From the NCBI RefSeq assembly GCF_032577575.1, contig NZ_JAWFVO010000003.1:122793-186792 (forward strand): DNA of 64,000 nucleotides. The letters run 5' to 3'. Position numbers and translations under genes: made by a program. Shown piece by piece: positions 15,238 to 46,391 of this stretch. The DNA comes from Veillonella parvula. GTDB taxonomy: Bacteria > Bacillota > Negativicutes > Veillonellales > Veillonellaceae. How positions within the stretch are numbered: the stretch's first letter is position 1; every line of letters starts with the position of its first letter. The notes beneath the pieces are model-generated. The model was not told the origin of the DNA. It worked only from the letters and a program-made list of their open reading frames with translations, and ran no database searches.

Positions 15238-15770
15238 GTTGCAACAGTGCTTACCGTTTACGGTATTGAAACTCATAGGAGGAAATATCATGACACATGT
15301 AGTATTTATCGGTTGCAACAGTGCTTACCGTTTACGGTATTGAAACGCGCGGTATTCCGATACTATCACCAGTAATCGAGGAGTTGCAACAGTGCTTACC
15401 GTTTACGGTATTGAAACCTAGAAGATTCACCGACATCATCAGGGATATCGACGTTGCAACAGTGCTTACCGTTTACGGTATTGAAACTTACTAGGAATCC
15501 CTAACACTTCATTTTGAATATGAGTTGCAACAGTGCTTACCGTTTACGGTATTGAAACTATCATTATAAGAGAATTTATCATCGGTATCCTGAACGTTGC
15601 AACAGTGCTTACCGTTTACGGTATTGAAACGCTTCATAAACTGCGATAACACACATAATAATTCTCGTTGCAATAGTACTTACCGTTTACGGCATTGAAA
15701 CTTCAAGTATGTTTCGGTTTTCGCCAATGATTCTTTTTGCATGTTGCAACAGTACTTACCGTTATGATAT
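15238..15770 (+). CRISPR. Array 3, family A repeat GTTGCAACAGTGCTTACCGTTTACGGTATTGAAAC, 8 repeats (last degenerate)/7 spacers
   Basis: 35-nt repeats ending ATTGAAAC. Confidence 0.97.
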
Positions 15771-15895
15771 ATGTCGCAGACTGTGAGGTAGAAGCGGCAC
15801 AGCGCAACGATGAAATCCCCATACTGCAGTTATCTATACAGATTGAAGGCAAATAAAGGTGATAAGGGGTTGTACTATATTTTCATTTCTAATAG

Positions 15896-16540: not shown

Positions 16541-18910
16541 TTAGATACTAGGGGCATGAATGAGTGCTGTTTTATAAATTGTTTCTAGTTGCTTTTTTAA
16601 CGGACTATCATCTGTAATTCGGACTGCACAGCCTAGTTTTAATAAATGTCGTAAGATATCTATTTCCTGGAAGGGAAGATAGCTAACTTCAATGGTAAAC
16701 TCTTCATCGTTGATATCTTTAGCTTGAATTGTATAGTTGCTAAAATAGTTAAAGCAACGATCAACTGCATTATTTGCATCGTGCAAGGTAAATGTTACGG
16801 TTCGCTTTGATTCATCTCTATAGTTAGCATATATAGTTTCTATATTTTCTAGTCGTGGTGCAGCCGTTTTTATGATATTAGATTCATTGCGTAGTGGATA
16901 GTCTAAAAAGGTATCCGTTGCATGGTCATAGGCAATAAGCGTATAGCCATTGCTTCCTACAGAGTATTCTATCCGACAAGGAGATAGCTCCTTATCTTGA
17001 ATCATGATACGTTCGTTATTTTGGATAGCTTGTAAGCACTGGGTGATTACTTGCATTGTTAACGGAGTATCGTTTGTCATGGTTGGAACACGTGTCCATG
17101 ATCCTTTTGGAAAGGTAGTGTCTACAGTTTTTAATTCAGTAGATAATATTTGACATAGCTCTGGTGAAAGCAGCCAGTTAGCTCGAGTATCAGAAATGAG
17201 GTCCTTTAAGAACATTCTTTCAGCATCAGAGATAATAACAAGAGGTAAATCTGGAAGAATAGACTCAACCTCTTCGCCATTTTCATTCGGCTCTACTAAT
17301 GCATCGGCTAGGAATTGCTCATAATCATCATTCCGCAATGTTTTTTTGTATGGGGCTGGCGTGAGCAGCCTACGATGATTAATTAATCCTTCTATATCTT
17401 GTTTTGTATGGACAACACCATTAATTAAGTCTAATTGCAATTGGTATTGTGTCGTAAAGGTAATAGCATTGATATCGTTTAAAACGGATGATACATAGGT
17501 ACCATCTAAGTCTTTGTCTTTTTTAGTTCTGTTATTATCAGATTCTTTTCTTTGGAGTGGATGAAGAAATCGATTAATTTTCTTTCGCTTTTTATATCCT
17601 TCTGGTTCTACAAAATCTATATTTAAAGAGGCGTATAAATTATTGTAGAATTTATCCTTAATACTGGATTTGTTTGTGTATGTAATATATACATAAGGTA
17701 AATAGCTACGTAATTGCGGTAATAATTGTAATGCATCTGGTACTTCTAGTTGCAATTCTATATATTCATCTGTTCTTGAGAGCATTGTTAGTGACTCTTT
17801 GAAATGACGAATAAATTTATCGTAGACCAACTCATAATCTTTTAAGGTCAAGAAGTGAATGATACAAGTATCAAATGTTTTATCTCTTGTTTGTATTTTT
17901 GGTACAGTATTAGTACTGTTATATTTTGTAACCTCAAGAGACTTGATGCGATCAATACGATTCCATTGGATACGTCCATTATTAATACTACATAGCATAT
18001 TTTTATTTTCCCCATAATAGGTTTGTAACGCTAATGGACTAACGATTTCCCTAGGTTTCCCAGATTCATAAAAGGATAGACGCACCTTTTTTTGTCGATG
18101 TAAGGCATCGGCTAAAGGGTAGAAAATATCTCCATCAATTACATTATTTGGATTATTATCCTTGAAAGAAAAATATGTATTATTAAAGTCATAGTACATA
18201 GACTTTTGTTGGTCTTTTAAAGAAAAGTCATTAATTAAATACATAATTTTCTTGAGTAAGATATGACCTGCTGCTGAAGTAATAGAAACATTAGTATAAA
18301 AGAATACTGCCATTGCTAGCTCTTGCAACTGCTGTTTTGATAGTTCCTCTATAATAGTTGGTTTTATTGAATATGTATAGCCTTTTGTGAGCTCTGTTTT
18401 GGTGATAGCACCTAAAATTTCTAAAGTCTTTACTTGGCGTTGAATATATTGTTGGTCAATAATGCAAGGGGGCTCTTGTTTTTTATTTCGTTGCTCATAT
18501 AGGTTTTTTACTAAATCAATATAGTGATCCAAGTATGGTTCTTGGTTTAAATTAGTATATAAATCTGTAATAGTTACATCATCGTTTGCTCCAATATATG
18601 ATAAGATGCAGAGCTGTACATAAATTTGTTCTGGAACGGCAGCATATAATTCATATAAATTGTTAAGATAATTATAGCCATCTATAAAATCATCTTTTGC
18701 CAAATGATGAATGGATGTTTTCCCAATTCTTTGCGTGTAAATGTGACGTATGATATCAAAATAATCAAGGCGACGAATCACATCGTCGTGCTGACTTTCT
18801 TTGATACCACGAACTGTTGCTTTACCTCTATTATGGTTCCCGAAGGTTAAGCTGCGGATAAATTGGCGCATACTAGCTAAATCATTTAGATAATTAGTTG
18901 TTGTTGCCAT
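16541..18910 (-). CDS. Large double-WYL transcriptional regulator (PafBC-fusion-like)
   Basis: Two WYL-like segments (ALHRQKKVRLSF..VSP..RIDRIKSLEV; AIQNNERI..SPCRIEY..YTLIAY) and WCX-like ends (LLKLGCAVRI...LK); RBS AAGGGAG before ATG 18910. Confidence 0.75.
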   Translation of the reverse strand: MATTTNYLNDLASMRQFIRSLTFGNHNRGKATVRGIKESQHDDVIRRLDYFDIIRHIYTQRIGKTSIHHLAKDDFIDGYNYLNNLYELYAAVPEQIYVQLCILSYIGANDDVTITDLYTNLNQEPYLDHYIDLVKNLYEQRNKKQEPPCIIDQQYIQRQVKTLEILGAITKTELTKGYTYSIKPTIIEELSKQQLQELAMAVFFYTNVSITSAAGHILLKKIMYLINDFSLKDQQKSMYYDFNNTYFSFKDNNPNNVIDGDIFYPLADALHRQKKVRLSFYESGKPREIVSPLALQTYYGENKNMLCSINNGRIQWNRIDRIKSLEVTKYNSTNTVPKIQTRDKTFDTCIIHFLTLKDYELVYDKFIRHFKESLTMLSRTDEYIELQLEVPDALQLLPQLRSYLPYVYITYTNKSSIKDKFYNNLYASLNIDFVEPEGYKKRKKINRFLHPLQRKESDNNRTKKDKDLDGTYVSSVLNDINAITFTTQYQLQLDLINGVVHTKQDIEGLINHRRLLTPAPYKKTLRNDDYEQFLADALVEPNENGEEVESILPDLPLVIISDAERMFLKDLISDTRANWLLSPELCQILSTELKTVDTTFPKGSWTRVPTMTNDTPLTMQVITQCLQAIQNNERIMIQDKELSPCRIEYSVGSNGYTLIAYDHATDTFLDYPLRNESNIIKTAAPRLENIETIYANYRDESKRTVTFTLHDANNAVDRCFNYFSNYTIQAKDINDEEFTIEVSYLPFQEIDILRHLLKLGCAVRITDDSPLKKQLETIYKTALIHAPSI

Positions 18911-19078
18911 TATTGACTCCCTTTTAAATATGTACATTCTCGACTGTACAAAATAATTCTTAATTATGAATATAACATGATACAATATAAAATGTAAGGA
19001 TAAAATTCGAGGTTAGGTTCTGATAATGCACGGATGACCAAGTGTAGTTAATCAATTAATGTAGGTTTGGTGAAAGCT

Positions 19079-21223
19079 ATGGCAATTCATAATATATTTT
19101 TATCTTTTTTGAGTAAGGTGTCTAATACGAGTATAAAGACGATTGTAAATACAGATATGGAAGATGCTATTCGTAGTAGCATTGCCACGAATGAGTCGTC
19201 TTTGAAATATATTTTATACCATACATGGAAGGATGAAAAAACAAGAGATATATCCTTTGATAAGATATATTTATTATGTACTGATGGTGTAATGGCACAT
19301 CAAAGTAATAGCCCATCATCTTATGATATCTTTGTTAATCAAATGTGTAAGTTTTATAACGTGATGGGCCACAATGAGCAGGCCTTTTTAGATGCTCTTG
19401 ATCATGTCCCATGTGGTACAGACTTAGATGATATTAGTCGTATTAAGTCTAGCATCATTGAGATGTCAAAGAAGATTCTTGACTTTAAAGATACTTTCAC
19501 CAATGATAAAGATGAGGTCCGCCTCTATATGGATATCACTGGTGGCCCACGCAATGCAGCTATGATTCTCCTTGTTATTAGTAGACTGCTCGCCTATCAT
19601 GGTATCATTGTTGATGATGTATATTACTCTGGTTATAAGGAGATTGAGAACGGCCCAGGAGAAATTACAGTTCATAAAGTGCTAGATATTTATGAGCTAT
19701 TTGATATTATTGCAGGATTTGAAGAGTTTAAACTATTTGGTAGTGCCAAAAAATTAAATACTTACTTTAAGTCACCTGAAAATATTGGAACAGGTAATAT
19801 TGAATCGACTGCTACAGCTACAAAAAAATTGCTAAAAGCTATGGACAGCTTTTCAGAAGCTATTAATATTTCAAGCCGTGGAGCATTTGAAAAATCTATA
19901 GCTCGTCTTGATGATAGCTTAGCCTTAGTACGTAGCATGGCAAATAATACAGATAACAATAAGACCTTTGACCAAGAATTGATTGAATTATTGCACAAAC
20001 CTATTGAGCAGTCGTATACTACACTTTTACAACATCATCGCAATCATGCTTCTGATGAACTAGCCTATATTGACTGGTGTTTAGATCATGATTATTTACA
20101 ACAAGCACTTACCTTATTTTGTGAATATGTACCGGAATACGCAGTAGATAAAGGTATTATAGAGTGTAATCCACTTGTGTTTAATGCATATTATGAAGAT
20201 ACCCTACAGAATAAAGAAAAGAGATTGCTACAAGCTGCTATAAAAGCATGGAATAGAGCGGGGAATCATATCCAGTTTAGTACATTTTATAATGTAGTCA
20301 TGCCCGATCATGATAAAAAAACTTCTGAAAAAGATGTACGGTCTATGCCTATGCGCTTATTCAATTCTATTAATAACGCTCGTATGCAAAACTTGGCGGC
20401 TATGATAAATACAAAAAAAGATAAAGTAGCTCCTAATATCGATAAAGTAATTACTTATTATATTAAATTCGTAAGAAACGAAAAAAAGAAAATACAAATT
20501 GTTGAAAGAGACCTCCAAAAGCAGAAAGAACGTATTCATCTGATGGTGGATGAAGAAACTACTAAACTTAGAGAAAAATGTGAGGTTCTTTTAAATCAAT
20601 ATGAGTTTACACTTTATTTACAAGACGATAGATATGCTGAAAATTATACATTATTAGAATATATCTCGTTTTTGCAAGATATTCTTGAAAGTGCAGAGAA
20701 TGTAGAAACCTTTAATAATATCTTAGAGTCATTACGTAAAAATATAATATCTGAAGTCTTAAGTAAAGAGGAATTTAAAGAGTATATTATTTGTGATGCA
20801 GATAATTCTTCATTTAGGTTGAAAAAAACAAGTATGTTAGCGCGTAATGTGGTGTGTAATGCTATATTAAATCATTTAATTGCAGAAAAGAAATATAAGG
20901 CTTATAAAAGTTTGATTATGCATCAGTTACCAGATACTAAAGATAGTGCGGTTACTACGGCTGAGCTTTTGTTATCACAACAAAAGCCTAATCATAGAGG
21001 GGTTCCTTTATTTGAGGTCTCTGGTGTGTACATTCCACATGTTCTATTAGATGATATAGCTAAGACTATGAAGTTTATTGAACAATACTTTGAGATAAAA
21101 AAAGCACGTAATGATAGTAATCATGCAAATAAAGAAGCATTATGTAAATATACTACTTCACAAGAATTGCTAGATGAGATGCGTAAATGTGTGGCAATGG
21201 CAAGAGAATTGAGTAGAAAATAG
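19079..21223 (+). CDS. CARF-HEPN (TM1812/Csx1-Csm6-like) cOA-activated nuclease
   Basis: CARF motif YMDITGGPRN; HEPN RNDSNH. Confidence 0.85.
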   Translation: MAIHNIFLSFLSKVSNTSIKTIVNTDMEDAIRSSIATNESSLKYILYHTWKDEKTRDISFDKIYLLCTDGVMAHQSNSPSSYDIFVNQMCKFYNVMGHNEQAFLDALDHVPCGTDLDDISRIKSSIIEMSKKILDFKDTFTNDKDEVRLYMDITGGPRNAAMILLVISRLLAYHGIIVDDVYYSGYKEIENGPGEITVHKVLDIYELFDIIAGFEEFKLFGSAKKLNTYFKSPENIGTGNIESTATATKKLLKAMDSFSEAINISSRGAFEKSIARLDDSLALVRSMANNTDNNKTFDQELIELLHKPIEQSYTTLLQHHRNHASDELAYIDWCLDHDYLQQALTLFCEYVPEYAVDKGIIECNPLVFNAYYEDTLQNKEKRLLQAAIKAWNRAGNHIQFSTFYNVVMPDHDKKTSEKDVRSMPMRLFNSINNARMQNLAAMINTKKDKVAPNIDKVITYYIKFVRNEKKKIQIVERDLQKQKERIHLMVDEETTKLREKCEVLLNQYEFTLYLQDDRYAENYTLLEYISFLQDILESAENVETFNNILESLRKNIISEVLSKEEFKEYIICDADNSSFRLKKTSMLARNVVCNAILNHLIAEKKYKAYKSLIMHQLPDTKDSAVTTAELLLSQQKPNHRGVPLFEVSGVYIPHVLLDDIAKTMKFIEQYFEIKKARNDSNHANKEALCKYTTSQELLDEMRKCVAMARELSRK

Positions 21224-21283: not shown

Positions 21284-23302
21284 TTATTGTTGATTATACG
21301 TACAGATATACTCACGAACCTCACGAATATCATTAAGACATTGTTTTAACTCTCTTTTTATGTCTTCACTTTCAATAAACTGGCCCCGCTTTTCTTCACG
21401 TGCATGTGCCGTATCATTTCGACTACCTTTTAATGTTCTATACAGGTTTAATATGCGAGCCACTTGTGTTATTTTTTCTGGATTGCTTTTTAATACTGAA
21501 TTAAGTGTGAGTCCATCTATACCATAAAGTTGATGGGGAAATAAATCTATTGGATATTGATATGATACAAAATTAGCAAATAGAAAACGATATATATCAT
21601 CATTGTTTGAGTTCGTGAAGATTGAAATAAATGCATCTCTTACCTTAAAGAGTTTATTAGTGTCGTTAAGTGTAATTTCATATTGATCATTAACTGTTAC
21701 AACATCGCTAGGTAAATCTTTAATTTCTTTTAATTGATGTACAAGTGCAGCAGTAAAATATCTTCTAATATCTTTACTGAACTCATTTATACCTACAATA
21801 GATTTGGTATTTATACCTATATTACTGATAAGTCGCAGTAGCTTACTAGGCACATTAACATTATTATTGGTAAACGTTTTGTATTTCAAATAATTATGTG
21901 GCTCTTTTTCTGCTTCTTTTAAGATTATTTGATTAATATCGTTTATTAGTTGCTCTTCAAATTTAGGGTATTGTGTATCCTCTCTAGTAATGTTAGTGCT
22001 AATGTTATTTTTCTTGTTTTTTAATGTTCGTTGGATAATTTGCTTAGACTCTTTTGAAAAATCACCACTAAAGTATTTCAGTAATACGCTTTTTATTTTA
22101 TTATTAATCTTAGTCGCTCTATTGTTTACGATTTCCATTGTTTTGGCGGTATACTCATTAATCGTATTAAAGTTCTCCATAGAGGCACTCAATTCATTGT
22201 CTGAGTCTGTAGGGAAGATTGTGTCGTCTAAAATAATCATTTTAGATTCTAAAATAGCACGAGGTACAAATTCAGCGAATAGTGCTAAGGCTTGCTGTAG
22301 ATAACCATTAGCTAGGCACCAATCAATGTATGCTAAATCGTCTTCTTTATTAGCTAGCACTGTTTTATAGTTATTTTGAATTTTGCCACTCATTAATTTG
22401 AGTGCCTCAATTTCAAAGTTTTTATGGTTTTCCCTATTATTTGCAGGTATTTCTTGTTTAGAGGATTCGATATCTGTTAAAAGTTTATGAATGTCCTCCA
22501 TGGATCTTTGGAATATACCGCGACTAGATAGACGAACGGCTTCTGAAAAATCTCCCATGCTAGAGATTAGTTCTTTGATTTGGACATCGGGGTTATCTAA
22601 GGTGTTTACATAGTTTTTTAATGTATCAACACTACCAAATTGGTTGAACTCAGCAAATCCTGTAATCATATCGTAAATATTATAGATGGAGTTCCCTTCA
22701 TATACTCGCACTATGCTATTGTTATTTGCATTTACATTGGCATATAAAATAGATCCAATTTCAATACCTTGAAAAGCTACTAGTCTAATGATGGCAATCA
22801 TCAGCATAATCGCAGTTCGTGGGCCACCAGATAAGTCTACATGTAAGATAACCCTGTCGTCAGATGACTTGCTTTTGTAATATTCCATTATAGCTTGAGA
22901 CATATCTATGATGCTGTCCTTTAGATTGTCTATATAGTCGATGTCACCACAATCTATATAATTAATTGTTTCTGGGTCCCACGTAATAGGTATACTGGTT
23001 TTATTGATATAATCACACATTTGCTCTTCAAATACGTTTAGGCTTGATATGGTAGATTCTTTAAACGTATTCTCCATTTCTGGTGATTTAAAAAAGAATA
23101 GCTTATCTAATTTGAAAGCAGAGTTCTCTTTTCTTTTATTATGTAAAAGATACTTTAAAGCGGATTCATTGGTTTGACGGATGACATCAAAGGGAGCTAT
23201 CTCAGTAAGATTAACAACTGTTTTTTCTAGCTTTTGCGGATTATATGGATTATCTTTCGTATGTAAGGTGCTTAAAAATGTTAGGTAAATATGATGTTCC
23301 AT
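21284..23302 (-). CDS. Second CARF-HEPN nuclease, paralog of 19079-21223
   Basis: HVDLSGGPRT; TNESALKY; YIDWCL..YLQQAL; HEPN RNDTAH. Confidence 0.85.
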   Translation of the reverse strand: MEHHIYLTFLSTLHTKDNPYNPQKLEKTVVNLTEIAPFDVIRQTNESALKYLLHNKRKENSAFKLDKLFFFKSPEMENTFKESTISSLNVFEEQMCDYINKTSIPITWDPETINYIDCGDIDYIDNLKDSIIDMSQAIMEYYKSKSSDDRVILHVDLSGGPRTAIMLMIAIIRLVAFQGIEIGSILYANVNANNNSIVRVYEGNSIYNIYDMITGFAEFNQFGSVDTLKNYVNTLDNPDVQIKELISSMGDFSEAVRLSSRGIFQRSMEDIHKLLTDIESSKQEIPANNRENHKNFEIEALKLMSGKIQNNYKTVLANKEDDLAYIDWCLANGYLQQALALFAEFVPRAILESKMIILDDTIFPTDSDNELSASMENFNTINEYTAKTMEIVNNRATKINNKIKSVLLKYFSGDFSKESKQIIQRTLKNKKNNISTNITREDTQYPKFEEQLINDINQIILKEAEKEPHNYLKYKTFTNNNVNVPSKLLRLISNIGINTKSIVGINEFSKDIRRYFTAALVHQLKEIKDLPSDVVTVNDQYEITLNDTNKLFKVRDAFISIFTNSNNDDIYRFLFANFVSYQYPIDLFPHQLYGIDGLTLNSVLKSNPEKITQVARILNLYRTLKGSRNDTAHAREEKRGQFIESEDIKRELKQCLNDIREVREYICTYNQQ

Positions 23303-24122: not shown

Positions 24123-24953
24123 GTTGCAACAGTACTTACCGTTTACGGTATTGAAACATAAAGGTCAAGTAATTTTCTGTATTGGTTCTGCAGAGTTGCA
24201 ACAGTACTTACCGTTTACGGTATTGAAACAAAGCTCATCAGCATTAATAAGTCGGATAGTATATTTATGTTGCAACAGTACTTACCGTTTACGGTATTGA
24301 AACTTATGATAACTTTGGCCATCTAGTTCTGATTCATTCCCAGTTGCAACAGTACTTACCGTTTACGGTATTGAAACTTCTTGAATTGCTGGGGTTAAAA
24401 TGCCTTTAATGAGTTGGTTGCAACAGTACTTACCGTTTACGGTATTGAAACTGATAGTCTCCTTTGCAAAATAGTACCGGATTTTTTAGTTGCAACAGTA
24501 CTTACCGTTTACGGTATTGAAACACGAAAAATTAAATTGTTCAATAGTATTTTTCTACGTGTTGCAACAGTACTTACCGTTTACGGTATTGAAACGCTTT
24601 GATTTCGGTAGGTATGCTTCTTTATATTTATGGTTGCAACAGTACTTACCGTTTACGGTATTGAAACATGAACAGTCTCTTCGGATGCATGTATTTTCTT
24701 TTCGGTTGCAACAGTACCTACCGTTTACGGTATTGAAACTTATATACGAATTTCATAATTATTCTCCTCTACCGGTTGCAACAGTACCTACCGTTTACGG
24801 TATTGAAACATTCCATTTAAAGATGCCTCTGTATCGTCAATACACACAGTTGTAACAGTACTTACCGTTTACGGTATTGAAACGTTTTAAGACGATGTGT
24901 TTCTTTTTCGCCCATATCATGCAAGTTGCAACAGTACTTACCGTTTACGGTAT
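24123..24953 (+). CRISPR. Array 4, family A (GTAC variant), 12 repeats/11 spacers; last repeat interrupted
   Basis: GTTGCAACAGTACTTACCGTTTACGGTATTGAAAC. Confidence 0.97.
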
Positions 24954-25050
24954 GCGCCGAAGGGTGCAAGACAGCAGAGGAGCAAAGCGACGATGAGGTC
25001 CGCACATCTCAAGTACCTGAACGAAGTGAAGGTAAAACAAGGGTGATAAG
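24954..25050 (+). repeat. Repeat-embedded ~100-nt element, array 4 copy
   Basis: Near-identical to 26275-26378 and 26471-26574; followed by a degenerate repeat remainder. Confidence 0.9.
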
Positions 25051-25312
25051 ACAATAGTACTTACTGTTTATGATTGTGTATTTTCATATTTAATGCAAAA
25101 GAGTGAATCTAAAGATCCACTCTTTTTTTTGTGTCTTAGTTATTTTGAATATGGACTTGTCGCTTTTCATTTTATAATGATTTTGTAGCCCAAAGGGAAA
25201 TACTTGAATTATAGAGATGGTCGTTCGCCTTAGTTTTTATGAATTCAATTGTATCTTTGATAAGGTTATACTATGGATAGTTAATTTAGTCATATGAGTT
25301 GGGAGGTAATGA

Positions 25313-25865: not shown

Positions 25866-26245
25866 TAGTAGAAATAATGATGGAATATAATTGTATATAG
25901 GCCTATTCATATGATATCGTATGGATAGGTCTTTTTATATGTAGTAGATAGACTAAATCCTTTTTTAGGTATTCAAATTAAGTTAAAAGTTGTTAAACTT
26001 AGATACTATCTACATTTAATTAAAAATAAGCCATAAGTCAGAAAGAAAACGATAAAGAATATTGACGTAAAATCGAGAAACCCTTATAATTACTGTAACC
26101 TTAGAAAAATCATTTACCACCAGTATTTACTTATGCTTATCGGTATTTTTGATCCAATGGGAGCTCAATCTGACCGTTTACGGTGTGAGGTTTGCCAAAA
26201 CTTAATTTTAAGCCCCATGAATACTGGCTTTCTGAGGTATGCTGT

Positions 26246-26672
26246 GTTGCAACAGTGCTTACCGTTTACGGTATGCGCCGAAGGGTGCGAGACAACAGAG
26301 GAGCAAAGCAACGATGAGGTCCGCACATCTCAAGTGCCTGAACGAAGTGAAGGTAAAACGAAGGTGATAAGGGATTCAGCTTACCGTTTACGGTATTGAA
26401 ACGGTGTCATTGGGTCTTCAGAAACAGTAATTACCTACCCAGTTGCAACAGCTTTTACCGTTTGCGGTATGCGCAGAAGGGTGCGAGACAGCAGAGAATC
26501 AAAGCGACGATGAGGTCCGCACATCTCAAGTACCTGAACGAAGTAAAGGTAAAACGAAGGTGATAAAGGATTCAGCTTACCGTTTACGGTATTGAAACTC
26601 TTTATCAATTTCAGTAGCTTTAGGTAAATTTACAGTTGCAACAGCTCTTACCGTTTACGGTATGCGTCGAAG
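26246..26672 (+). CRISPR. Array 5: full leader, two 157-nt expanded repeats, 2 spacers and a partial third repeat
   Basis: Repeats 26246-26402 and 26442-26598; spacers 26403-26441 and 26599-26634. Confidence 0.88.
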
Positions 26673-26844
26673 AATGGGAATATCTAACTTAAAAATTACA
26701 TAATAATAAAGAACTGTGTTTTTGTGTATATCACACAAAGATACAGTTCTTTTTTTGTTCCTAGTTTTTCTGATTAGTTTACTTTCAGTATGATTCGTAT
26801 AATGAACTCAACAAGTTTAATTGGTCTTATATAGGAGGTAGTAT

Positions 26845-27430: not shown

Positions 27431-27706
27431 ATGCAGTATCTTATTTCTTATGATATTTCCGATACTAAAATTAGAAATAAGGTAGTTAAGTATTTAGAAT
27501 CCTTCTGTTACCGCGTACAGTATAGTGTGTTTTTATGTGTTCATGCTCACGTTAGAGTAGAAACGATTGCCAAAAAGCTCGAGGTGCTAACACAAGGGGA
27601 TGAAACACGGCGTCTCCTCATCGTCTCTATTTCTGACACAGCTAAGACACCTATATGGTGTAATAAAATGATTCCATTAACAGAGGATAAGATGTTGATC
27701 ATTTAA
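27431..27706 (+). CDS. cas2: Cas2
   Basis: YLISYDISD, RVQYSVF. Confidence 0.93.
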   Translation: MQYLISYDISDTKIRNKVVKYLESFCYRVQYSVFLCVHAHVRVETIAKKLEVLTQGDETRRLLIVSISDTAKTPIWCNKMIPLTEDKMLII

Positions 27707-27720
27707 TTTTGTAGGAGGTT

Positions 27721-28719
27721 GTGATGTTAGAAACTTTATATGTAATGACACCTGGTATATCGATACGACAAGATGGAGGATTGTTAGTACTTGAAAAAGA
27801 TCATTCTGTTATTAAAGAAATTCCTATAGCGACTGTATCAAATCTTGTATTAGGCCGAACGATTCAAATTTCTACGCAGGTTATGTTTTCTTTAGTGAAG
27901 CAAGGTTCTCTCATTCAGTTTGTAGATTATAAGTATCAGCTTGTAGGGACCTTAGGGGATGAGCATACGACTTTACAACGTTTGTTGTGGCAAGTAGCAT
28001 GCTTTCAAAATCAAGAATTTGCCTTAGATGGGGCCAAATATATTGTGCGACGTAAGATTAAAGGTCAGATAGCCTTGTTGAATCAGTACAAAAAGAGTAA
28101 ATGCATTCCAAATTTTGTGGCCGTACATAGAACGATGCAAGCGTTGCTGAAACGTGTAGAAAGAACAAAAAAAGTAGACACATTACGTGGTATAGAGGGA
28201 TTAGCATCTAGGACTTATTTTTCTGTATTAAGACATGTATTATCTGAACCATGGGAATTTTCTGGCCGTAGACGTCATCCTAGCCCTGATCCTGTTAACG
28301 CTATCTTGAGTTATGGCTATTCGTTTTTAGAACGGGAAGTACGTGCCTGTTTGTTGACTGCTGGTTTAGATGTACGCATAGGTGTTCTACATAGCACGAA
28401 TAATCGAAAGGATAGTTTAGTGTACGATGTAATGGATATATTTAGACAAGATATAATCGATCGCTTTGTATTAAAACTATTGAATCGTCATATGATACTC
28501 CCTGAAGATTTTGATCTATCAGAACGAGGTTGTTTTTTATCTAAAGAGACCAATAAGGAATGGGTGGAGCTTTATGAGGACTATATGAAAGCGGAGCTTT
28601 CTCGCCTTGATAATCTAGCACCAAGAAAATGGATTCAACAAGAAATACAAGCTTTTATTTCATATCTCAAATCGTTAGGTGAAACAGTAGATATTGAAAA
28701 ATCTGAGAATATATCTTGA
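27721..28719 (+). CDS. cas1: Cas1
   Basis: LRGIEG, GRRRHPSPDPVNAILSYGY, GVLH, SLVYDVMD. Confidence 0.95.
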   Translation: MMLETLYVMTPGISIRQDGGLLVLEKDHSVIKEIPIATVSNLVLGRTIQISTQVMFSLVKQGSLIQFVDYKYQLVGTLGDEHTTLQRLLWQVACFQNQEFALDGAKYIVRRKIKGQIALLNQYKKSKCIPNFVAVHRTMQALLKRVERTKKVDTLRGIEGLASRTYFSVLRHVLSEPWEFSGRRRHPSPDPVNAILSYGYSFLEREVRACLLTAGLDVRIGVLHSTNNRKDSLVYDVMDIFRQDIIDRFVLKLLNRHMILPEDFDLSERGCFLSKETNKEWVELYEDYMKAELSRLDNLAPRKWIQQEIQAFISYLKSLGETVDIEKSENIS

Positions 28720-29307: not shown

Positions 29308-30909
29308 ATGCAAGTAAATGCCATATTGTTTGATGTGCAGTCTATTCAAAAGTATATTTTTGCTAACAATAAACTGAAGGCCAATGTTGGAGCATCGTTT
29401 ATTGTGGATAGATTGTTTGAGGATGTACTGTGTAAAGAAATTATCAATAAGCTTGGGGTAGAGGCTGACACTATATCCTGGTTGACACGTAGTGACAGCA
29501 TTACATCTCTTCCAAAACCTATATACGTTGCGTATATTGGCGGCGGTAATGCTCTGGTTCTTGTAGATGATAAACATGAAAGTTTGGTTCAAGATATTGT
29601 TAAGAAATTTACGACTCAAGTTTTGGTGCAGTATCCAGGTCTAAAAGTAGGTGCCACAACTGGTTACATTACTCTTGATGGAACACAGTTTTCTGCAGAT
29701 CTCGGCAAATTATATAAACAACTGAAAGCTAATCAATTTGCATTGAATCTAATTGTGCATCCTGCCAATACAGGTTTGACAACCATTTGTGATTTCAGTG
29801 GTGATGTAGCAGATACAACGCAAAGCTTTGGTGATGACAAGCGCTTAGTTGCTACATCCTTCACAGCTAAGTTTGAAGCCTTTGAGGCTGCGAATAGCCG
29901 TTTAAAAATAGACTTATTTGGTACGGAAACGACTGATTGGGTATTTCCATCTGAATTTGAAGAGTTAGGTCAAAACCAATCTACCGAAAAGAGTAAAACA
30001 GGTATCAATGATATTGCTATCGTTCATATCGATGGTAATAACATGGGTGCTCACTTTAGACAATGTAAAACATTAGAAGAACGCAGTGCTCTTTCTAAAC
30101 GTGTAGCTACAAAGACATTGGAGAGCTTTAAAGCATTGGTGCAATGGATTATTGATAAATACGATATTCTTGATGAAAACCTCGAATTGTCTAAGAATAT
30201 GTTGCCAATCCGTCCGATTATCATTGGTGGCGATGATATTACTTTTATTTGCAATGCTCGTATTGCAGTGCAAGCCTCTCACTATTTAATGCAACAACTC
30301 TTGAGTGATAAGAACGGCATATCCATCTCTTCTTGTGCTGGTATTGCTGTAATTCCTACGTCTTACCCATTCTTTAGAGGCTATGAAATGGCAGAGCAGC
30401 TTTGCGATAGCGCTAAATCTAAAATGCGTGAATATAATGCGGTGCACAAGGTTAATGAGTCTTGTTGGATGGATTTTGCCTTCCTTCATGGTGAAACAGC
30501 ACCTACCTTGGAGCAGTTTTTCGCTAATGAATATAGTAGCTTAACCGGTAATATGCATTTTGGGCCATATCAAGTGTTTAATGATAATATTGAGGCTGAA
30601 AAAGATATATTTGCTCTTTCAAAATTATTAGAGTGTACACATCAATTTATTTTGGTTAAGGATAAAGCATATTCAGGTGATTTGCTGGCTCATAATAAGG
30701 TCAAAGAATTGCGTTCTGTATTACAAGATAATGAACATATGTGGACTGTATTCCTCGAGCAGCTGCGCAACACTAATAAATTTATGCCTACTGTATTTGG
30801 TTGGGATGCTTTCAAAGAAAAACTGTGGGCTAAGGTAAATGGTAAAATGCGTACGCCATATGTTGATGCCATAGAATTAATGGATTATGTTTTGCCTGGA
30901 TTGGAGTAA
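29308..30909 (+). CDS. cas10: Cas10, type III-D; no HD domain, intact GGDD
   Basis: FDVQSIQKYIF, YIGGGN, HIDGNNMG, IIGGDD. Confidence 0.93.
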   Translation: MQVNAILFDVQSIQKYIFANNKLKANVGASFIVDRLFEDVLCKEIINKLGVEADTISWLTRSDSITSLPKPIYVAYIGGGNALVLVDDKHESLVQDIVKKFTTQVLVQYPGLKVGATTGYITLDGTQFSADLGKLYKQLKANQFALNLIVHPANTGLTTICDFSGDVADTTQSFGDDKRLVATSFTAKFEAFEAANSRLKIDLFGTETTDWVFPSEFEELGQNQSTEKSKTGINDIAIVHIDGNNMGAHFRQCKTLEERSALSKRVATKTLESFKALVQWIIDKYDILDENLELSKNMLPIRPIIIGGDDITFICNARIAVQASHYLMQQLLSDKNGISISSCAGIAVIPTSYPFFRGYEMAEQLCDSAKSKMREYNAVHKVNESCWMDFAFLHGETAPTLEQFFANEYSSLTGNMHFGPYQVFNDNIEAEKDIFALSKLLECTHQFILVKDKAYSGDLLAHNKVKELRSVLQDNEHMWTVFLEQLRNTNKFMPTVFGWDAFKEKLWAKVNGKMRTPYVDAIELMDYVLPGLE

Positions 30910-35029: not shown

Positions 35030-37042
35030 ATGGCTGGTAAAGGTAAAAGTAAAAATAGACATGCTGCTAGTGCGGCCTTCTTTGCACGAAATAATCCAGG
35101 AATGGATGTTGAAAAAGTAGCTAATGAAAGACATTCTGGCGGAAATCGTGGTGGTGGGCAAAATCGTTCTGGTGGCTATAATAATTCCTACAATAATCAA
35201 GGCGGTAATCGTAGTGGTGGTAACAGCAAATACCCAAGTGAGCCAGCAAGTGCAGCGTATAATTTTGTACGCTTGCCAGAGCATGTAATTCCAGCTGAGT
35301 TTTACAATGGTCATTTTGAAGGAGTTACGAAAGACGTGTTGAAGGCTTATTGTGATCATGTACAACAAGCTGATATACATACAGGTTATATAGACCTTAC
35401 CATTACAACTGAAACACCTCTATTCATTGGTGGACCGTCTAAACAAGACGAGGATACACCACTTGAATTTTATGGTGGCCAAGATAATCCTACAATTCCG
35501 GGGACAAGCCTTAAAGGTATGGTAAAACAAATCTTCAAGATTGTTACAGCTAGTAGCTTTAGACCATACCAACGGGGAACGGGTCTTGGTGATTTCGAAG
35601 ATAGATATCTTTATTTCCGTGATTTTGCAAGCTCTATTAAATCCCTCAAAGAATACTATGCTGCTCGTATGGTGGGAAAGGAAATAAATGCAAAAGGTGA
35701 AGAAAAGGCTGCTACAAAAGCGACACCTGGCTTTATCATTCAGACTGTAGATAATAACTATTTTGCTATACCTAGTGAATCTAGAAAAATGTCTTATTCT
35801 GACGATTATGAAATGCAGAAGAAGAAAAATACTCCGTCTATTGATTGGACGGATCAGTATGTAAACATCCATACTGGTAGAATGAATTCTAAAATGTCTT
35901 ATATGCGTATTACTCGACCTGGTAATTTTGAAGGTAAGCGCATTCCGATTCTTCAAGAATGTATCGACAGTTATAAAGACGATAAAAACCGTGGTACATT
36001 AAATCTATTGGATAAAAAAGTCGGTAAATCTGGTGATGCAGCCAAGAATTATACTCGTTGTAATGATGTTAAGTTTGTAGTACCATGTTTCTTCTCTGAA
36101 AAAGATGGTATTGTAGAGCATTTTGGTCATGGTCGATTCTATCGTATTGCATATGACTTGAAAATTAGCGACCACTTACCAACTACATTAGAGCAACATA
36201 ATAATGGTGTGGATCTTTGTGATAGTGTATTTGGCTATGGCGATAATTGGGCTGGCCGCTTATCCTTCTCCGATGCTCATGTTGTGGGACCTGTGAGAAT
36301 GTGCCAATCTGATTACCCACATCCATTGATGGGGCCTAATCCAACATCCTTTCAATTGTATTTAGAGCAAGATGTAGATAATCACTCCACTTATAACCAT
36401 TGGGGGCATGAAGGGGCATCCATTCGCGGTTATAAAATGTACTGGCATCAACCGTTAGCAAAAGTAAAAGATTGGACTCGTACAGAAGAGGAAAAAGCCA
36501 TTAAAGGTACTCGTAAAATTCGTCCAGTTGATACTGGCGTTACCTTTAAAAGCCGCATTCATTTTGACCGATTAAGCAGCGTTGAGCTAGGCGCATTGTT
36601 GATGTCCTTAGATTTAGATCATTACTCTGGCGGTAATCGTCGTACATACTATAAACTTGGTATGGGAAAATCCATCGGTTTTGGTAGTATTAAACTAGAG
36701 TCTGCTGTAACGGTTTTCGATAGTAAAGAACGCTATGGCAGCCTATTCGGTGGTGATACTTGGAATACTGGAGATAGCACAACTACTCCTAATGAGTATG
36801 TAGATTCTTTCACTCAGTATCGCGATAATGTACTAGGTTCTAACATATCCTCTTATAAAGCGATGCTAGATGATTTGTTCATGATGCTAGATTGGAATAT
36901 TGCTAATGGTCCAAATGCAGCTAAAAACTGGACTGATGGTATTTCTATGATGACCATTAAGAATAATAAAATGGATCCTCGTATCAAATACCGTAGCAAG
37001 CTAGATACACCTAAATCCTTCATCGCAAAGTGGTCTAAATAA
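35030..37042 (+). CDS. Cas7 with large insertion (TIGR03986-like)
   Basis: AAYNFV, IPGTSLKG, IRGYKMYWH, KLGMGKSIGFGSI. Confidence 0.88.
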   Translation: MAGKGKSKNRHAASAAFFARNNPGMDVEKVANERHSGGNRGGGQNRSGGYNNSYNNQGGNRSGGNSKYPSEPASAAYNFVRLPEHVIPAEFYNGHFEGVTKDVLKAYCDHVQQADIHTGYIDLTITTETPLFIGGPSKQDEDTPLEFYGGQDNPTIPGTSLKGMVKQIFKIVTASSFRPYQRGTGLGDFEDRYLYFRDFASSIKSLKEYYAARMVGKEINAKGEEKAATKATPGFIIQTVDNNYFAIPSESRKMSYSDDYEMQKKKNTPSIDWTDQYVNIHTGRMNSKMSYMRITRPGNFEGKRIPILQECIDSYKDDKNRGTLNLLDKKVGKSGDAAKNYTRCNDVKFVVPCFFSEKDGIVEHFGHGRFYRIAYDLKISDHLPTTLEQHNNGVDLCDSVFGYGDNWAGRLSFSDAHVVGPVRMCQSDYPHPLMGPNPTSFQLYLEQDVDNHSTYNHWGHEGASIRGYKMYWHQPLAKVKDWTRTEEEKAIKGTRKIRPVDTGVTFKSRIHFDRLSSVELGALLMSLDLDHYSGGNRRTYYKLGMGKSIGFGSIKLESAVTVFDSKERYGSLFGGDTWNTGDSTTTPNEYVDSFTQYRDNVLGSNISSYKAMLDDLFMMLDWNIANGPNAAKNWTDGISMMTIKNNKMDPRIKYRSKLDTPKSFIAKWSK

Positions 37043-37845
37043 TGCTAGGCACAGTTACTATTGCTTTAGAAGCTCAAAATAGAGGCAGCTTGCCTGCCTT
37101 TCCTGGGCGATATCTACATGCAGCACTCTTCTCTATTCTTAGTCATATAGATGCAGATGAGGCTACATGGTGGCATGATATGGAAGGAATAAAGCCTTTC
37201 TCACTACAATTATCCTTTAAAGAGCTTCGTCAAGATAATATCATTCGATGTGGGGATATCTTATATTTACATGTTTCTGTATGGCATAGTGAGTTATGGG
37301 GATTAGTAGAAGGTATATCTGAGGGCTTAGAAGTAGTCTTTGGTAGACTACGAACTACAATTGTAGGGGTTCGTTACGGGGCACCGTTTAATCTACCGTT
37401 GAAAGTAGATAATGAACTGGAGCTCATCAGTCGGCGCCTTTCTGCAAAACAGGTGAGACGTATTACTTTTGAAGTTATGATGCCTACATCCTTTAATGGG
37501 ACACATGGAGATATAACCTTTCCTACAGTAAGTCTTATTTTTTCCTCACTTGTAGACAAATGGAATGCTGGTGATATGACCGATGCATTAAATAAGGATT
37601 TAATACGGACGGTCGTTGAGAAGGTTACTCTTGAACGCTGGGAAGGTCATACAAAACGCGTGTTTTATGGTCGTGATCGTGGCCTTACTGGTTTTGTAGG
37701 CAAGTTTACCTTTAATATTTCTAAACTTACAGAAGAGGAAAACCAACTCATTACTATTTTGGCACTCTTCGGTCAGCACAGTGGCATAGGTAGATTATCT
37801 AGCCAAAGTCTTGGTCAAGTACGTGTTACATTACAAAACAAATAG
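37042..37845 (+). CDS. cas6: Second Cas6
   Basis: YLHAALF, KPFS, PTSF, GFVG, GIGRLSSQSLG. Confidence 0.88.
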   Translation: MLGTVTIALEAQNRGSLPAFPGRYLHAALFSILSHIDADEATWWHDMEGIKPFSLQLSFKELRQDNIIRCGDILYLHVSVWHSELWGLVEGISEGLEVVFGRLRTTIVGVRYGAPFNLPLKVDNELELISRRLSAKQVRRITFEVMMPTSFNGTHGDITFPTVSLIFSSLVDKWNAGDMTDALNKDLIRTVVEKVTLERWEGHTKRVFYGRDRGLTGFVGKFTFNISKLTEEENQLITILALFGQHSGIGRLSSQSLGQVRVTLQNK

Positions 37846-46390: not shown

Positions 46391-46391
46391 T

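What the first reader, a model, noticed from the sequence alone, without database searches (positions are those of the whole stretch)
26246..26672. CRISPR array built from 157-nt repeats carrying a conserved 104-nt element between two Cas6 hairpins
Seen: behind an intact leader and promoter, each repeat reads repeat nt 1-29, then a 104-nt element, then repeat nt 12-35. The ~18 nt containing the ACCG-TTTA-CGGT hairpin are therefore duplicated on both sides. Normal 39- and 36-nt spacers lie between the giant repeats. The element enters at the same base in array 4 (24954) and in the partial repeat at 26664, with a decayed copy after array 3 (~15770-15870). Known: Cas6 cuts 3' of the hairpin, leaving an 8-nt tag. 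Inference: processing would release normal crRNAs plus a constant ~122-nt RNA with a non-canonical 5' end. This is either a domesticated Cas6-matured RNA or a repeat-targeting mini mobile element.
Basis: partly seen in the sequence, partly recalled or inferred. Interest (0 to 1): 0.9.

Follow-up and report, generated by a model that had tools for sequence, protein, structure and literature searches.

The report
Structured RNA nested inside CRISPR repeats
In this Veillonella genome and its relatives, some repeats of a type III CRISPR array are split by a conserved, folded RNA element of about 100 bases that keeps a copy of the repeat's processing hairpin on each side, an arrangement that seems not to have been described and whose role is unknown.

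Summary
Window 26246-26402 and 26442-26598 are 157-nt "giant repeats": repeat nt 1-29, an insert (X), then the rest of the repeat. Normal spacers lie between them, behind a promoter and before a terminator. In relatives the right-hand part is repeat nt 4-35, so the duplication is 26 nt and X is about 96 nt.

X is not a local accident. It lies in the arrays of 9 of the 10 family genomes that carry this repeat. All 268 copies found in metagenome contigs keep a flanking repeat hairpin, and none stands alone.

X folds into two hairpins with many compensatory changes, on the crRNA strand only.

Its first hairpin belongs to a wider family, found in 99 of 121 genomes. In this genome the non-CRISPR copies sit just downstream of 5S rRNA genes.

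Giant repeats are rare next to the leader and common towards the trailer. A conserved "X + decayed repeat + terminator" module ends many arrays. I found no site that is filled in one strain and empty in another.

Best reading: X is a resident intervening RNA bracketed by Cas6 sites. It would be cut out as a ~122-nt RNA and copied by recombination between repeats. Cas6 cleavage and any function are untested.

The parts
26062..26090 (+). Promoter-like site of array 5 (TTGACG, 17-nt spacer, TATAAT)
   Evidence: 11 of 12 consensus positions. It lies in a leader homologous to the leaders of arrays 3 and 4 (family D3).
26170..26190 (+). Repeat-like hairpin in the leader (CTGACCGTTTACGGTGT), 57-59 nt upstream of the first repeat
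   Evidence: The same feature is present in the leaders of nearly all related arrays (the 'HP(57)R5' token).
26246..26402 (+). Giant repeat 1: repeat nt 1-29 (26246-26274), insert X with decayed repeat nt 4-11 (26275-26378), repeat nt 12-35 (26379-26402)
   Evidence: (family D4)
26273..26394 (+). Predicted Cas6 product, 122 nt. Its 5' end is AUGCGCCG and its 3' end is the repeat hairpin.
   Evidence: Inference from the canonical cut 8 nt before the repeat's end. Folding gives -33.8 kcal/mol, z -2.05 against shuffles.
26280..26331 (+). Hairpin P1 of X. Stems are 26280-26293 and 26319-26331. The apical loop of about 25 nt is nearly invariant and carries GAGGAG and AUG.
   Evidence: compensatory changes at pairs 10-59, 17-52, 21-49 and 22-48. 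G.U pairs make it strand-specific.
26335..26355 (+). Hairpin P2 of X (UGCCU-GA-AC-GAA-GU-GA-AGGUA), with a tandem G.A internal loop
   Evidence: Pair 71-77 reads AU 81, GC 68, CG 42. Pair 65-83 reads AU 141, CG 41. Pair 72-76 reads CG 194, UA 17.
26403..26441 (+). Spacer 1 (39 nt)
26442..26598 (+). Giant repeat 2, 92% identical to giant repeat 1
   Evidence: An orthologous unit with the same GAGAATC variant is present in G054.
26599..26634 (+). Spacer 2 (36 nt)
   Evidence: an identical spacer lies in G054 (L048), also between giant units.
26635..26672 (+). Terminal stub: repeat nt 1-29 plus the first 9 nt of X (GCGTCGAAG), then unrelated trailer
   Evidence: family D5
26708..26752 (+). Intrinsic-terminator-like hairpin that closes the array 5 transcription unit
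24925..25081 (+). Terminal unit of array 4: repeat nt 1-29, X, a decayed repeat, then a hairpin and T-run
   Evidence: The same terminal module recurs in many metagenome contigs and in G041 and G054.
15764..15875 (+). Decayed copy of X after the last repeat of array 3
   Evidence: Model R1 hits window 15773-15831 at E 7e-4. An orthologous weak hit lies in L190.

Best explanation
X is a resident 'intervening sequence' of this type III CRISPR locus, not a free-living repeat.

What it is. X is a structured RNA module of about 96 nt. It belongs to a family found across the Veillonella family of genomes, whose usual home in this genome is the DNA just downstream of 5S rRNA genes. In the arrays it sits between two partial copies of the repeat, nt 1-29 on the left and nt 4-35 on the right. 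Each partial copy keeps the Cas6 stem-loop and cut site.

How it would work:
1. The array is transcribed from the leader promoter (consensus match only).
2. Cas6 cuts at both hairpins (inferred, not shown).
3. The crRNAs on either side get normal 8-nt tags.
4. X is released as a ~122-nt RNA. Its 5' end (AUGCGCCG) is not a crRNA tag, so the effector complex should not load it (inferred).

What is shown. The fold of X (P1 and P2) is under selection on the crRNA strand.

How it spreads (partly shown, partly inferred). The oldest and most conserved position is the last unit of the array, ahead of the terminator. Internal and tandem copies arise mainly by recombination, gene conversion or segmental duplication between repeats, because X is bracketed by 26-29 nt identical to every other repeat. 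Segmental duplication is shown; the rest is inferred.

What X RNA does is unknown. My guess is a role in cis for the long untranslated transcript, for example protecting or defining its 3' end, as for the relatives that follow 5S rRNA genes.
For: Always in this context:
- In the own genome, X occurs only in the CRISPR region.
- In 13 loci from 8 related genomes, every copy is hairpin-X-hairpin at fixed distances.
- In metagenome contigs, of 268 copies, 232 have a hairpin on both sides, 27 on the left only and 9 on the right only. 15 of those 36 lie at contig ends. None lacks a hairpin on both sides.

Tied to the repeat family:
- The repeat occurs in 10 or more copies in 10 of 121 family genomes.
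- 9 of these 10 carry X.

Fold under selection:
- In 69 distinct copies, 91.5% of cells are paired, against 44% or less when partners are slid. 9 pairs show compensatory changes. 0 of 500 shuffles reach the observed score.
- 231 distinct metagenome copies show the same pattern.
- The short form of P2 exists only in the CRISPR lineage, so its covariation (AU/GC/CG) arose after X was captured.
- Pair 12-57 is G.U in 63 of 69 copies, so only this strand pairs.

Wider family:
- P1 covaries across CRISPR and non-CRISPR copies.
- Model R1 hits 99 of 121 genomes.
- The non-CRISPR R1 hits in the own genome lie at 4 loci, each with a 5S rRNA gene just upstream.

Terminal module and polarity:
- 68 leader-anchored arrays were parsed.
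- Giant units make up 34 of 483 in the leader halves and 135 of 483 in the trailer halves.
- Position 1 is giant in 5 of 68 arrays. The last visible unit is giant in 31 of 68.

Stable inheritance and duplication:
- 48 spacer pairs are shared by different contigs.
- 33 are normal in all, 11 giant in all, 2 multi-copy in all, 1 giant against an internally deleted X, 1 other. None is normal in one contig and giant in another.
- Repeated [giant repeat + spacer] units with identical spacers lie in G075, G079 and G013.

Transcription unit: promoter and terminator consensus matches flank array 5, with none inside X.
Against: - Cas6 cleavage and the 122-nt RNA have not been observed. The runs laid were contigs, which cannot show RNA ends, and cover in one RNA library (X14) may be DNA carry-over.
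- Isolated giant units lie between lineage-specific spacers while the first repeat is normal in 63 of 68 arrays. This needs conversion of repeats after the spacers were acquired. An active insertion mechanism would explain that as well as, or better than, recombination.
- Up to 31 copies in one genome is more than a functional RNA should need.
- Arrays of the same repeat can lack X entirely, as in window 43303-44070 and genome G109. X is therefore not required for the system.
- The relatives near rRNA genes lie after an intrinsic terminator, so a shared role in the transcript's 3' end is a guess.
- Kin and overlapping strains are not independent, so the counts overstate the support.
Confidence: 0.45

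Rival explanations
1. X is an active, non-autonomous mobile element that targets the CRISPR repeat. An enzyme supplied in trans makes cuts staggered by 26 bp, between repeat nt 3/4 and nt 29/30, and inserts X. The enzyme could be an integrase-like activity (the array's own Cas1-Cas2 is the boldest candidate) or a single-strand HUH transposase that uses the repeat hairpin. The hairpins of X are kept because mobility needs them.
For: - The geometry repeat(1-29)-X-repeat(4-35) is what a 26-bp staggered cut gives.
- Giant units become more frequent with distance from the leader, that is with the age of the repeat: 34 of 483 against 135 of 483.
- Isolated giants lie between unique spacers although the first repeat is normal in 63 of 68 arrays.
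- Tandem (X-hairpin)n runs of up to 6 copies occur.
- Copy number reaches 31 per genome.
Against: - The left half-repeat is no more like its own right half (identity 0.827) than like the right halves of other copies in the same genome (0.855). There is no fresh duplication signal.
- 0 of 48 spacer pairs shared between contigs differ between normal and giant.
- X has no terminal inverted repeats (sequence).
- Y1 transposase is intact in only 2 of the 6 X-bearing genomes examined (G079, G075). It is broken in G000 and G054 and absent in G041 and G013, although G013 has 16-20 copies.
- Y2 transposase was not found, but the control did not ring either, so that search is uninformative.
- Unequal crossing-over explains the tandems equally well.
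Confidence: 0.25
2. X is a domesticated trans-acting small RNA that Cas6 matures, a second kind of product of the array. It could be a regulator, a sponge for Cas6 or for ribosomes, or a CreT-like RNA that acts through the Shine-Dalgarno-like GAGGAG and the AUG displayed in the P1 loop.
For: - The P1 loop is nearly invariant and carries GAGGAG and, about 10 nt later, AUG.
- Both flanking hairpins are conserved in 232 of 268 copies.
- The fold is under selection.
- X is present in 9 of 10 genomes with this repeat.
- CreT toxins are small RNAs whose activity depends on an SD motif, a start codon and a hairpin, and creTA modules lie next to cas6 (PMC10097628, passages read).
Against: - No conserved reading frame. 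A 2-nt indel between P1 and P2 shifts the frame in 16 of the 69 copies.
- The second codon varies between AGG and AAG.
- The own genome's relatives near 5S genes have no AUG in the loop.
- Copy number runs from 0 to 31 and is not dosage-like.
- A toxin transcribed with the array from a strong promoter, with no CreA-like repressor, is implausible.
- No target was identified.
Confidence: 0.15
3. X is a neutral relic. One old insertion near the end of an ancestral array was carried along as arrays and loci duplicated. Its apparent structure is only inherited from the family near rRNA genes.
For: - The terminal 'X + decayed repeat + trailer' module is shared by arrays 3, 4 and 5 and by many contigs.
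- Segmental duplications occur.
- Decayed or internally deleted copies exist: window 15764-15875, and L092 against L044.
Against: - Compensatory changes in the short P2, which is specific to the CRISPR lineage, need selection after capture.
- The flanking hairpins are kept, while right-hand repeat nt 4-13 were free to decay.
- Giants lie between lineage-specific spacers in arrays that share almost no spacers.
Confidence: 0.1

Closest known systems
Intervening sequences (IVS) in bacterial 23S rRNA genes, removed from the transcript by RNase III without re-ligation (recalled knowledge, no call)
   Same: Both are an extra structured segment lodged in a gene for a stable, non-coding RNA. The host's own processing nuclease cuts it out at the RNA level and leaves functional flanking pieces. 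Presence and copy number vary between strains and operons.
   Different: - The host gene here is a CRISPR repeat and the presumed nuclease is Cas6.
- The cut sites are provided by duplication of the repeat hairpin, not by a stem within the insert.
- Excision has not been shown.
Structured intergenic repeat families and MITEs: REP/BIME, BOX, ERIC, Correia elements (recalled knowledge)
   Same: - Short, non-coding, hairpin-forming, modular units that lie at the 3' ends of transcription units.
- The relatives near rRNA genes are arranged as (A-B)n modules, and many start with GTAG next to the hairpin, as REPs do.
   Different: - X itself is never scattered. It is confined to one position of one CRISPR repeat.
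- It has no terminal inverted repeats.
- No RAYT-type Y1 transposase is consistently present.
CreTA modules: CreT RNA toxin and CreA degenerate crRNA (PMC10097628, passages read; PMC8501985, abstract in search listing only)
   Same: - A small non-crRNA RNA embedded in a class 1 CRISPR-Cas locus.
- CreA is flanked by two degenerate repeats.
- CreT depends on an SD motif, a start codon and a hairpin.
   Different: - X lies inside the array and is transcribed with it.
- It is multi-copy.
- It has no conserved mini-ORF and no rare-codon run.
- No divergent promoter with a CreA target was seen.
- Relatives of X exist outside CRISPR loci.
Solitary repeat units / RNA anti-CRISPRs (Racr) of phages (PMC10651486, abstract in search listing only)
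   Same: Repeat hairpins are used outside the normal repeat-spacer register, and Cas6-type proteins would bind them.
   Different: Racrs are phage-encoded repeat mimics with no cargo. Here the hairpins belong to the host's own array and bracket a conserved structured cargo.

Membership tests
CRISPR array (Cas6-processed, type III-associated) | Direct repeats separated by unique spacers of similar length | tested here: met
   spacers of 39 and 36 nt between the giant repeats. Neighbouring arrays have 35-nt repeats and 35-41-nt spacers.
CRISPR array (Cas6-processed, type III-associated) | Leader with promoter, and cas genes nearby | tested here: met
   for the promoter, for the leader family. 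Cas6 14025-14792 and 37042-37842, Cas2 27431-27703, Cas1 27721-28716, Cas10 29308-30906, and RAMP proteins.
CRISPR array (Cas6-processed, type III-associated) | Repeat of uniform length, typically 23-50 nt (recalled) | tested here: not met
   Units of 157 nt here. Elsewhere units of about 279, 400 and 522 nt carry 2-4 X copies.
CRISPR array (Cas6-processed, type III-associated) | Cas6 cleavage at the hairpin base giving an 8-nt 5' tag | not testable with these tools
   Only contigs were served. The hairpin and ATTGAAAC are present on the right of each unit. The hairpin followed by AUGCGCCG is on the left.
MITE / non-autonomous transposon | Terminal inverted repeats | tested here: not met
   The ends GCGCCGAAGG... 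and ...GGTGATAAGG are not reverse complements of each other (sequence).
MITE / non-autonomous transposon | Target-site duplication made at each insertion | tested here: inconclusive
   A 26-nt direct duplication exists. But the two halves of a unit are no more alike than halves of different units: 0.827 against 0.855.
MITE / non-autonomous transposon | Filled and empty sites among related genomes, and dispersed copies | tested here: not met
   0 of 48 shared spacer pairs differ between normal and giant. 0 of 268 copies lie outside the repeat context. The sample of informative sites is small: 14 involve a giant or multi-copy unit.
REP / RAYT system | Hairpin with a conserved 5' GTAG, and a cognate Y1 (RAYT) transposase in the genome | tested here: not met
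   GTAG is present in many relatives near rRNA genes, but X has GAAG or GCAG there. Y1_Tnp is broken in G000 and G054 and absent in G041 and G013.
CreT-type RNA toxin | SD motif plus start codon plus a conserved mini-ORF or rare codons, repressed by a CreA guide | tested here: not met
   SD-like motif and AUG are present. The frame is not conserved: a 2-nt indel occurs in 16 of 69 copies, and the second codon is AGG or AAG. The own genome's relatives lack the AUG. No CreA-like partner was looked for beyond the array.
Any Rfam family | Match to a curated covariance model | tested here: not met
   0 matches at gathering score in the whole window. Nothing relevant at E up to 10 on 26230-26420 or on a relative near a 5S gene.
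5S rRNA-derived element | Significant sequence or structure similarity to 5S rRNA | tested here: not met
   Local alignment to the genome's own 5S scores z -0.03 for X, and +0.30 and -0.60 for two relatives, against 500 shuffles. There is no 5S model hit on the element.

The most novel reading that the evidence does not exclude
CRISPR arrays of this Veillonella type III system make two classes of Cas6-matured RNA: crRNAs, and a constant, structure-selected ~122-nt RNA encoded inside the repeats. In addition, normal repeats are converted to X-bearing repeats in place, by an insertion reaction with a 26-bp stagger at the repeat hairpin. That reaction could be catalysed by the adaptation integrase Cas1-Cas2 itself. 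On this reading X would be either a functional partner of the system or the first element known to home into CRISPR repeats by using the CRISPR machinery.
Probability: 0.2. Interest if true: 0.9.

Novelty: new variant of a known kind. Interest (0 to 1): 0.72.

Why it matters
CRISPR repeats are taken to be short and uniform, and array finders assume this. Here a folded RNA of about 96 nt lives inside the repeat in almost every genome that has this repeat family. It appears to do so without breaking the array, because the Cas6 hairpin is duplicated on both sides.

If Cas6 does release it, arrays can carry passenger or accessory RNAs that are processed like crRNAs. This would be a natural counterpart of engineered Cas6-flanked RNA cassettes.

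The arrangement also offers a natural test of how the integrase finds the far end of a repeat, since array 5 of this genome starts with a 157-nt repeat.

The link to a covarying element downstream of 5S rRNA genes, found in 99 of 121 genomes, points to an undescribed structured-RNA family attached to operons for stable RNAs.

In practice, such arrays will be split or missed by CRISPR annotation tools.

Tried and rejected
**Known RNA family.** There were no matches at gathering score in the window and nothing relevant at relaxed thresholds. A weak match of the right-hand part to CRISPR-DR36 (E 4.8) is not significant.

**Small protein.** The SD + AUG mini-ORF (17 codons in the window) is not conserved. 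There is a 2-nt indel in 16 of 69 copies, and the own genome's relatives have no AUG. The 88-aa ORF at 26133-26399 merely runs across the leader and repeat.

**5S rRNA origin.** By eye, P2 and the 3' tail resemble parts of 5S rRNA. Alignment scores are no better than shuffles. Dropped.

**HUH transposases.** Y1 has no consistent presence. The Y2 search found nothing, but its control was silent, so it is uninformative.

**Fresh target duplication.** Not seen.

**Filled/empty polymorphism.** None in 48 shared spacer pairs. The power is low.

**Internal promoter in X.** None found by the consensus scan.

**Expression.**
- The look-up of sequencing runs gave only assembled contigs, and no run held half of the sampled words.
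- After laying them, I first read the joint '26402 -> 26246' with 12 different inserts of 34-40 nt as giant-spacer-giant. I withdrew that reading, because normal repeats give the same joint.
- Contigs of one RNA library (X14) cover 26025-26402. This does not prove transcription and says nothing about RNA ends.

**Cas6 relatives.** Of 12 loci found, the 11 with 77-80% identical Cas6 showed none of this repeat and no X. The one I checked (L196) carries the other repeat type.

**Literature.** Five full-text searches listed no paper describing an element inside CRISPR repeats or a repeat family near 5S genes in Veillonella. I read only listings and abstracts, plus passages of PMC10097628. Subscription journals are not covered.
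Full report
**1.

Array 5 begins behind a leader that is homologous to the leaders of arrays 3 and 4 (repeat finder family D3). The leader carries a promoter-like site at 26062-26090, matching 11 of 12 consensus positions.

The array reads as follows:
- Giant repeat 1, 26246-26402.
- Spacer 1, 39 nt, 26403-26441.
- Giant repeat 2, 26442-26598.
- Spacer 2, 36 nt, 26599-26634.
- A stub at 26635-26672: repeat nt 1-29 plus the first 9 nt of the insert.
- Unrelated sequence, then a terminator-like hairpin at 26708-26752.

Each giant repeat is repeat nt 1-29, then 104 nt, then repeat nt 12-35. The junction GGTAT|GCGCC recurs at 24954 in the last unit of array 4. A decayed copy follows array 3 (covariance model hit at window 15773-15831, E 7e-4).

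**2. The true boundaries**

In G079, G013 and G022 the right-hand part of the unit reads GCAACAGTACCTACCGTTTACGGTATTGAAAC, which is repeat nt 4-35. The unit is therefore repeat(1-29) - X (about 96 nt) - repeat(4-35), with a 26-nt direct duplication.

In the lineage of the window (G000, G041, G054) nt 4-13 of the right-hand copy have drifted to GGGATTCAG. The hairpin and the last 8 nt are kept. That is why only 17-18 nt look duplicated here.

Units with 2, 3, 4 and up to 6 X copies exist. In these the copies are separated only by the 26-nt piece, with a period of about 122 nt and no spacer.

**3. Where X occurs**

In the window's own genome, the 104-nt query matches only the CRISPR region. There are three good copies, and the decayed copy after array 3 gives only a weak partial match (E 1.29).

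In the family (121 genomes, one per species), 24 have a BLAST match. The strong, multi-copy matches are in G041, G054, G075, G079, G097, G106, G013 and G022, which span two genera.

A token map of 13 fetched loci shows that every copy sits hairpin-37 nt-core-45 nt-hairpin inside arrays of this repeat.

The repeat itself, at 10 or more copies, is found in 10 of 121 genomes. Nine of these ten have X in their arrays; G109 does not.

After I dropped 11 loci that overlap others on the same contig, or that are the same contig as G079, 268 X cores remained:
- 232 have a repeat hairpin on both sides.
- 27 have one on the left only. 12 of these are at a contig edge. Most of the other 15 are array-terminal units whose right repeat has decayed.
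- 9 have one on the right only, 3 of them at a contig edge.
- None has no hairpin.

So the CRISPR-type element is never found away from this repeat.

By Cas6 similarity the relatives are Veillonella parvula, V. atypica, V. hominis and unnamed Veillonella. Of those 12 loci only the one with 96% identical Cas6 has this repeat. The other 11 showed neither this repeat nor X. The one I checked, L196, carries the window's other repeat type.

**4. X is a folded RNA on the crRNA strand**

I aligned 69 distinct copies of the predicted Cas6 product (72 extracted, 5 further cores skipped for missing flanks). I then tested a structure of my own:
- P1 is a long hairpin, columns 9-22 with 48-60, window 26280-26331.
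- P2 is a short hairpin with a tandem G.A loop, columns 64-84, window 26335-26355.
- The third helix is the 3' repeat hairpin.

Results:
- 91.5% of cells pair, against 44% or less when partners are slid by 1-3 columns.
- 9 pairs show changes on both sides.
- 0 of 500 shuffles reach the observed values for four of the five measures; for further pair types, 2 of 500 do.

These shuffles ignore relatedness, so they are not probabilities.

231 distinct cores from metagenome contigs give the same picture:

| Pair | Pair types seen |
|---|---|
| 71-77 | AU 81, GC 68, CG 42 |
| 65-83 | AU 141, CG 41, GU 34 |
| 72-76 | CG 194, UA 17, UG 13 |
| 17-52 | CG 169, UG 20, UA 17 |
| 21-49 | AU 149, GU 44, GC 17 |

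Pair 12-57 is G.U in 63 of 69 copies, so the opposite strand could not form it.

RNAalifold on its own proposed a different base for P1. My version is the one with covariation. The single-sequence fold of the window's product is modestly better than shuffles (z -2.05).

The apical loop of P1, about 25 nt, is nearly invariant. It carries GAGGAG and, about 10 nt later, AUG. A peptide is unlikely:
- A 2-nt indel between P1 and P2 changes the frame in 16 of 69 copies.
- The second codon varies.
- The genome's own non-CRISPR relatives have no AUG there.

**5. X has relatives outside CRISPR**

Weak single BLAST hits in 15 other genomes turned out to be a related element. It has the same P1 and a longer P2.

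P1 covaries across both kinds of copy. 94.1% of cells pair, 5 pairs have compensatory changes, and the covariation score is 0.352 against 0.128 in shuffles.

A covariance model of P1 (R1) finds matches in 99 of 121 family genomes, in three genera, mostly at 1-10 copies.

In the window's genome the six non-CRISPR hits (one of them weak, E 0.8) lie at 4 loci, all close to contig ends. In each locus a 5S rRNA gene lies just upstream. The same holds in G040.

At these loci the element follows the rRNA terminator as alternating modules, (P1-type, P2-type)n. In five other genomes it follows a gene whose product ends ...FCLGK. I take this to be mnmE, from recall and not from any call.

The short P2 is specific to the CRISPR lineage, so its covariation arose after X was captured into the repeat.

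By eye, parts of the element resemble 5S rRNA. Alignment scores are no better than shuffles and the 5S model does not hit it. I dropped that idea.

**6. How X is distributed along arrays**

I parsed 68 arrays anchored by a leader, 17 from species genomes and 51 from metagenome contigs. They are not all independent; for example the window's array 5 recurs in L120 and L129. Results:
- Position 1 next to the leader is giant in 5 of 68 arrays, and position 2 in 4 of 68.
- In the 55 arrays with 8 or more units, 34 of 483 units in the leader half are giant, against 135 of 483 in the trailer half.
- The last visible unit is giant in 31 of 68.

A conserved terminal module, made of X, a decayed repeat, about 30 nt and a terminator, ends array 4 of the window and many arrays elsewhere.

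**7. Tests for mobility**

- *Fresh duplication.* The left and right half-repeats of one unit are no more alike (identity 0.827) than halves of different units in the same genome (0.855, 1224 comparisons).
- *Polymorphism.* 48 adjacent spacer pairs are shared by different contigs. 33 have a normal repeat in all, 11 a giant in all, 2 a multi-copy unit in all, 1 a giant against an internally deleted X, and 1 an odd length in all. None is normal in one and giant in another. Only 14 of these sites involve a giant or multi-copy unit, so the power is low.
- *Segmental duplication.* This does occur. Identical spacers next to identical giant units are repeated in G075, G079 and G013.
- *Transposases.* A Y1 (IS200-type) gene is intact in G079 and G075. 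It is broken in G000 and G054 and absent in G041 and G013, which has 16-20 X copies. The Y2 search was uninformative. Cas1 here is a plain 332-aa Cas1 with no reverse-transcriptase fusion.

**8. Expression**

No raw reads were on offer. All runs came as contigs, and none held half of the sampled words. Contigs of one RNA library cover 26025-26402, including X, but this may be DNA and cannot show ends. The frequent joint 26402 -> 26246 with varied inserts of 34-40 nt cannot tell giant repeats from normal ones, so I make nothing of it.

**9. Reading**

Shown:
- The architecture, and its strict tie to this repeat.
- Its spread through almost all genomes that have the repeat.
- The selected, strand-specific fold.
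- The kinship with elements downstream of 5S rRNA genes.
- The trailer-ward polarity.
- Stable inheritance at the sites that could be compared.

Inferred:
- Cas6 cuts at both hairpins and releases a ~122-nt RNA that the effector should ignore, because its 5' end is not the tag ATTGAAAC.
- The neighbouring crRNAs are unaffected.
- Copies multiply mainly by recombination between repeats.

I rank the explanations as follows:

| Explanation | Confidence |
|---|---|
| Resident intervening RNA bracketed by Cas6 sites | about 0.45 |
| Active repeat-targeting mobile element | 0.25 |
| Domesticated trans-acting RNA | 0.15 |
| Neutral relic | 0.10 |

Isolated giant units lie between lineage-specific spacers, although the first repeat is almost always normal. 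Repeats must therefore be converted after spacer acquisition, by gene conversion or by true insertion.

**10. Comparison and novelty**

X works most like the intervening sequences of 23S rRNA genes that RNase III removes (recalled). It looks most like modular hairpin repeat families such as REP/BIME or BOX (recalled). It is a member of none: it meets neither the MITE, the REP/RAYT, the CreT nor any Rfam criterion tested.

Five full-text searches listed nothing on elements inside CRISPR repeats. The library lacks most subscription journals, and I read listings and abstracts only, plus passages of PMC10097628.

I rate it a new variant of a known kind, of high interest. It is robust and recurrent, and it bears on how Cas6 and the integrase read a repeat.

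Noticed in passing
window 26170-26190; also about 15164, 24049 and 43229: Every leader of this array family carries a near-copy of the repeat hairpin (CTGACCGTTTACGGTGT) 57-59 nt upstream of the first repeat. The same is seen in almost all related arrays. It could be a Cas6 site that trims the leader, or an anchor for the integrase.
   Followed up: partly
G000 contigs C1:248-306, C1:847990-848048, C2:472941-472999, C4:136051-136647 (loci L055-L061): A covarying hairpin family (P1) with alternating P2-type modules lies just downstream of 5S rRNA genes, after the rRNA terminator. Model R1 finds it in 99 of 121 family genomes. It matches no Rfam family, so it is a candidate new structured-RNA or repeat family.
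   Followed up: partly
window 10301-10656, 13429-13617, 44317-45055, 63027-63985: The window is a CRISPR super-locus. It holds a second repeat family (GTTAAATTAAATAATCCCC..GGGGACGGAAAC) in several short arrays and a third, type II-like repeat family at the far end. There are two Cas1-Cas2 pairs (27431-28716 and 45395-46664). No giant units were seen in these other arrays.
   Followed up: no
window 16541-18982 (-), 19067-21220 (+), 21284-23299 (-): Three large ORFs (813, 718 and 671 aa) between arrays 3 and 4 have no Pfam match at E 0.001. They may be unknown accessory or defence genes within the CRISPR locus.
   Followed up: no
window 11297-13135: A GmrSD-type restriction endonuclease gene lies between the short arrays, adding to the defence-island character of the region.
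   Followed up: no
window 43303-44070: An array of the same repeat family, with the same kind of leader, has 11 normal repeats, a degenerate last repeat and no X. X is therefore not obligatory even within one genome.
   Followed up: yes
L092 against L044 (metagenome contig against G013): At one pair of shared spacers the unit is 158 nt in one record and 92 nt in the other. This is an internal deletion within X, and is the only length difference among the shared sites.
   Followed up: partly
G000:C3:54501-54785 (outside the window): A Y1 (IS200-type) transposase pseudogene with four stop codons. Intact copies exist in G079 and G075.
   Followed up: partly
L057 1455-1492: An Rfam match just above gathering score to 'IBV_D-RNA', a coronavirus element, in a bacterial locus next to a 5S gene (35.6 bits against a cut-off of 35). 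This is almost certainly a chance match to a hairpin.
   Followed up: no
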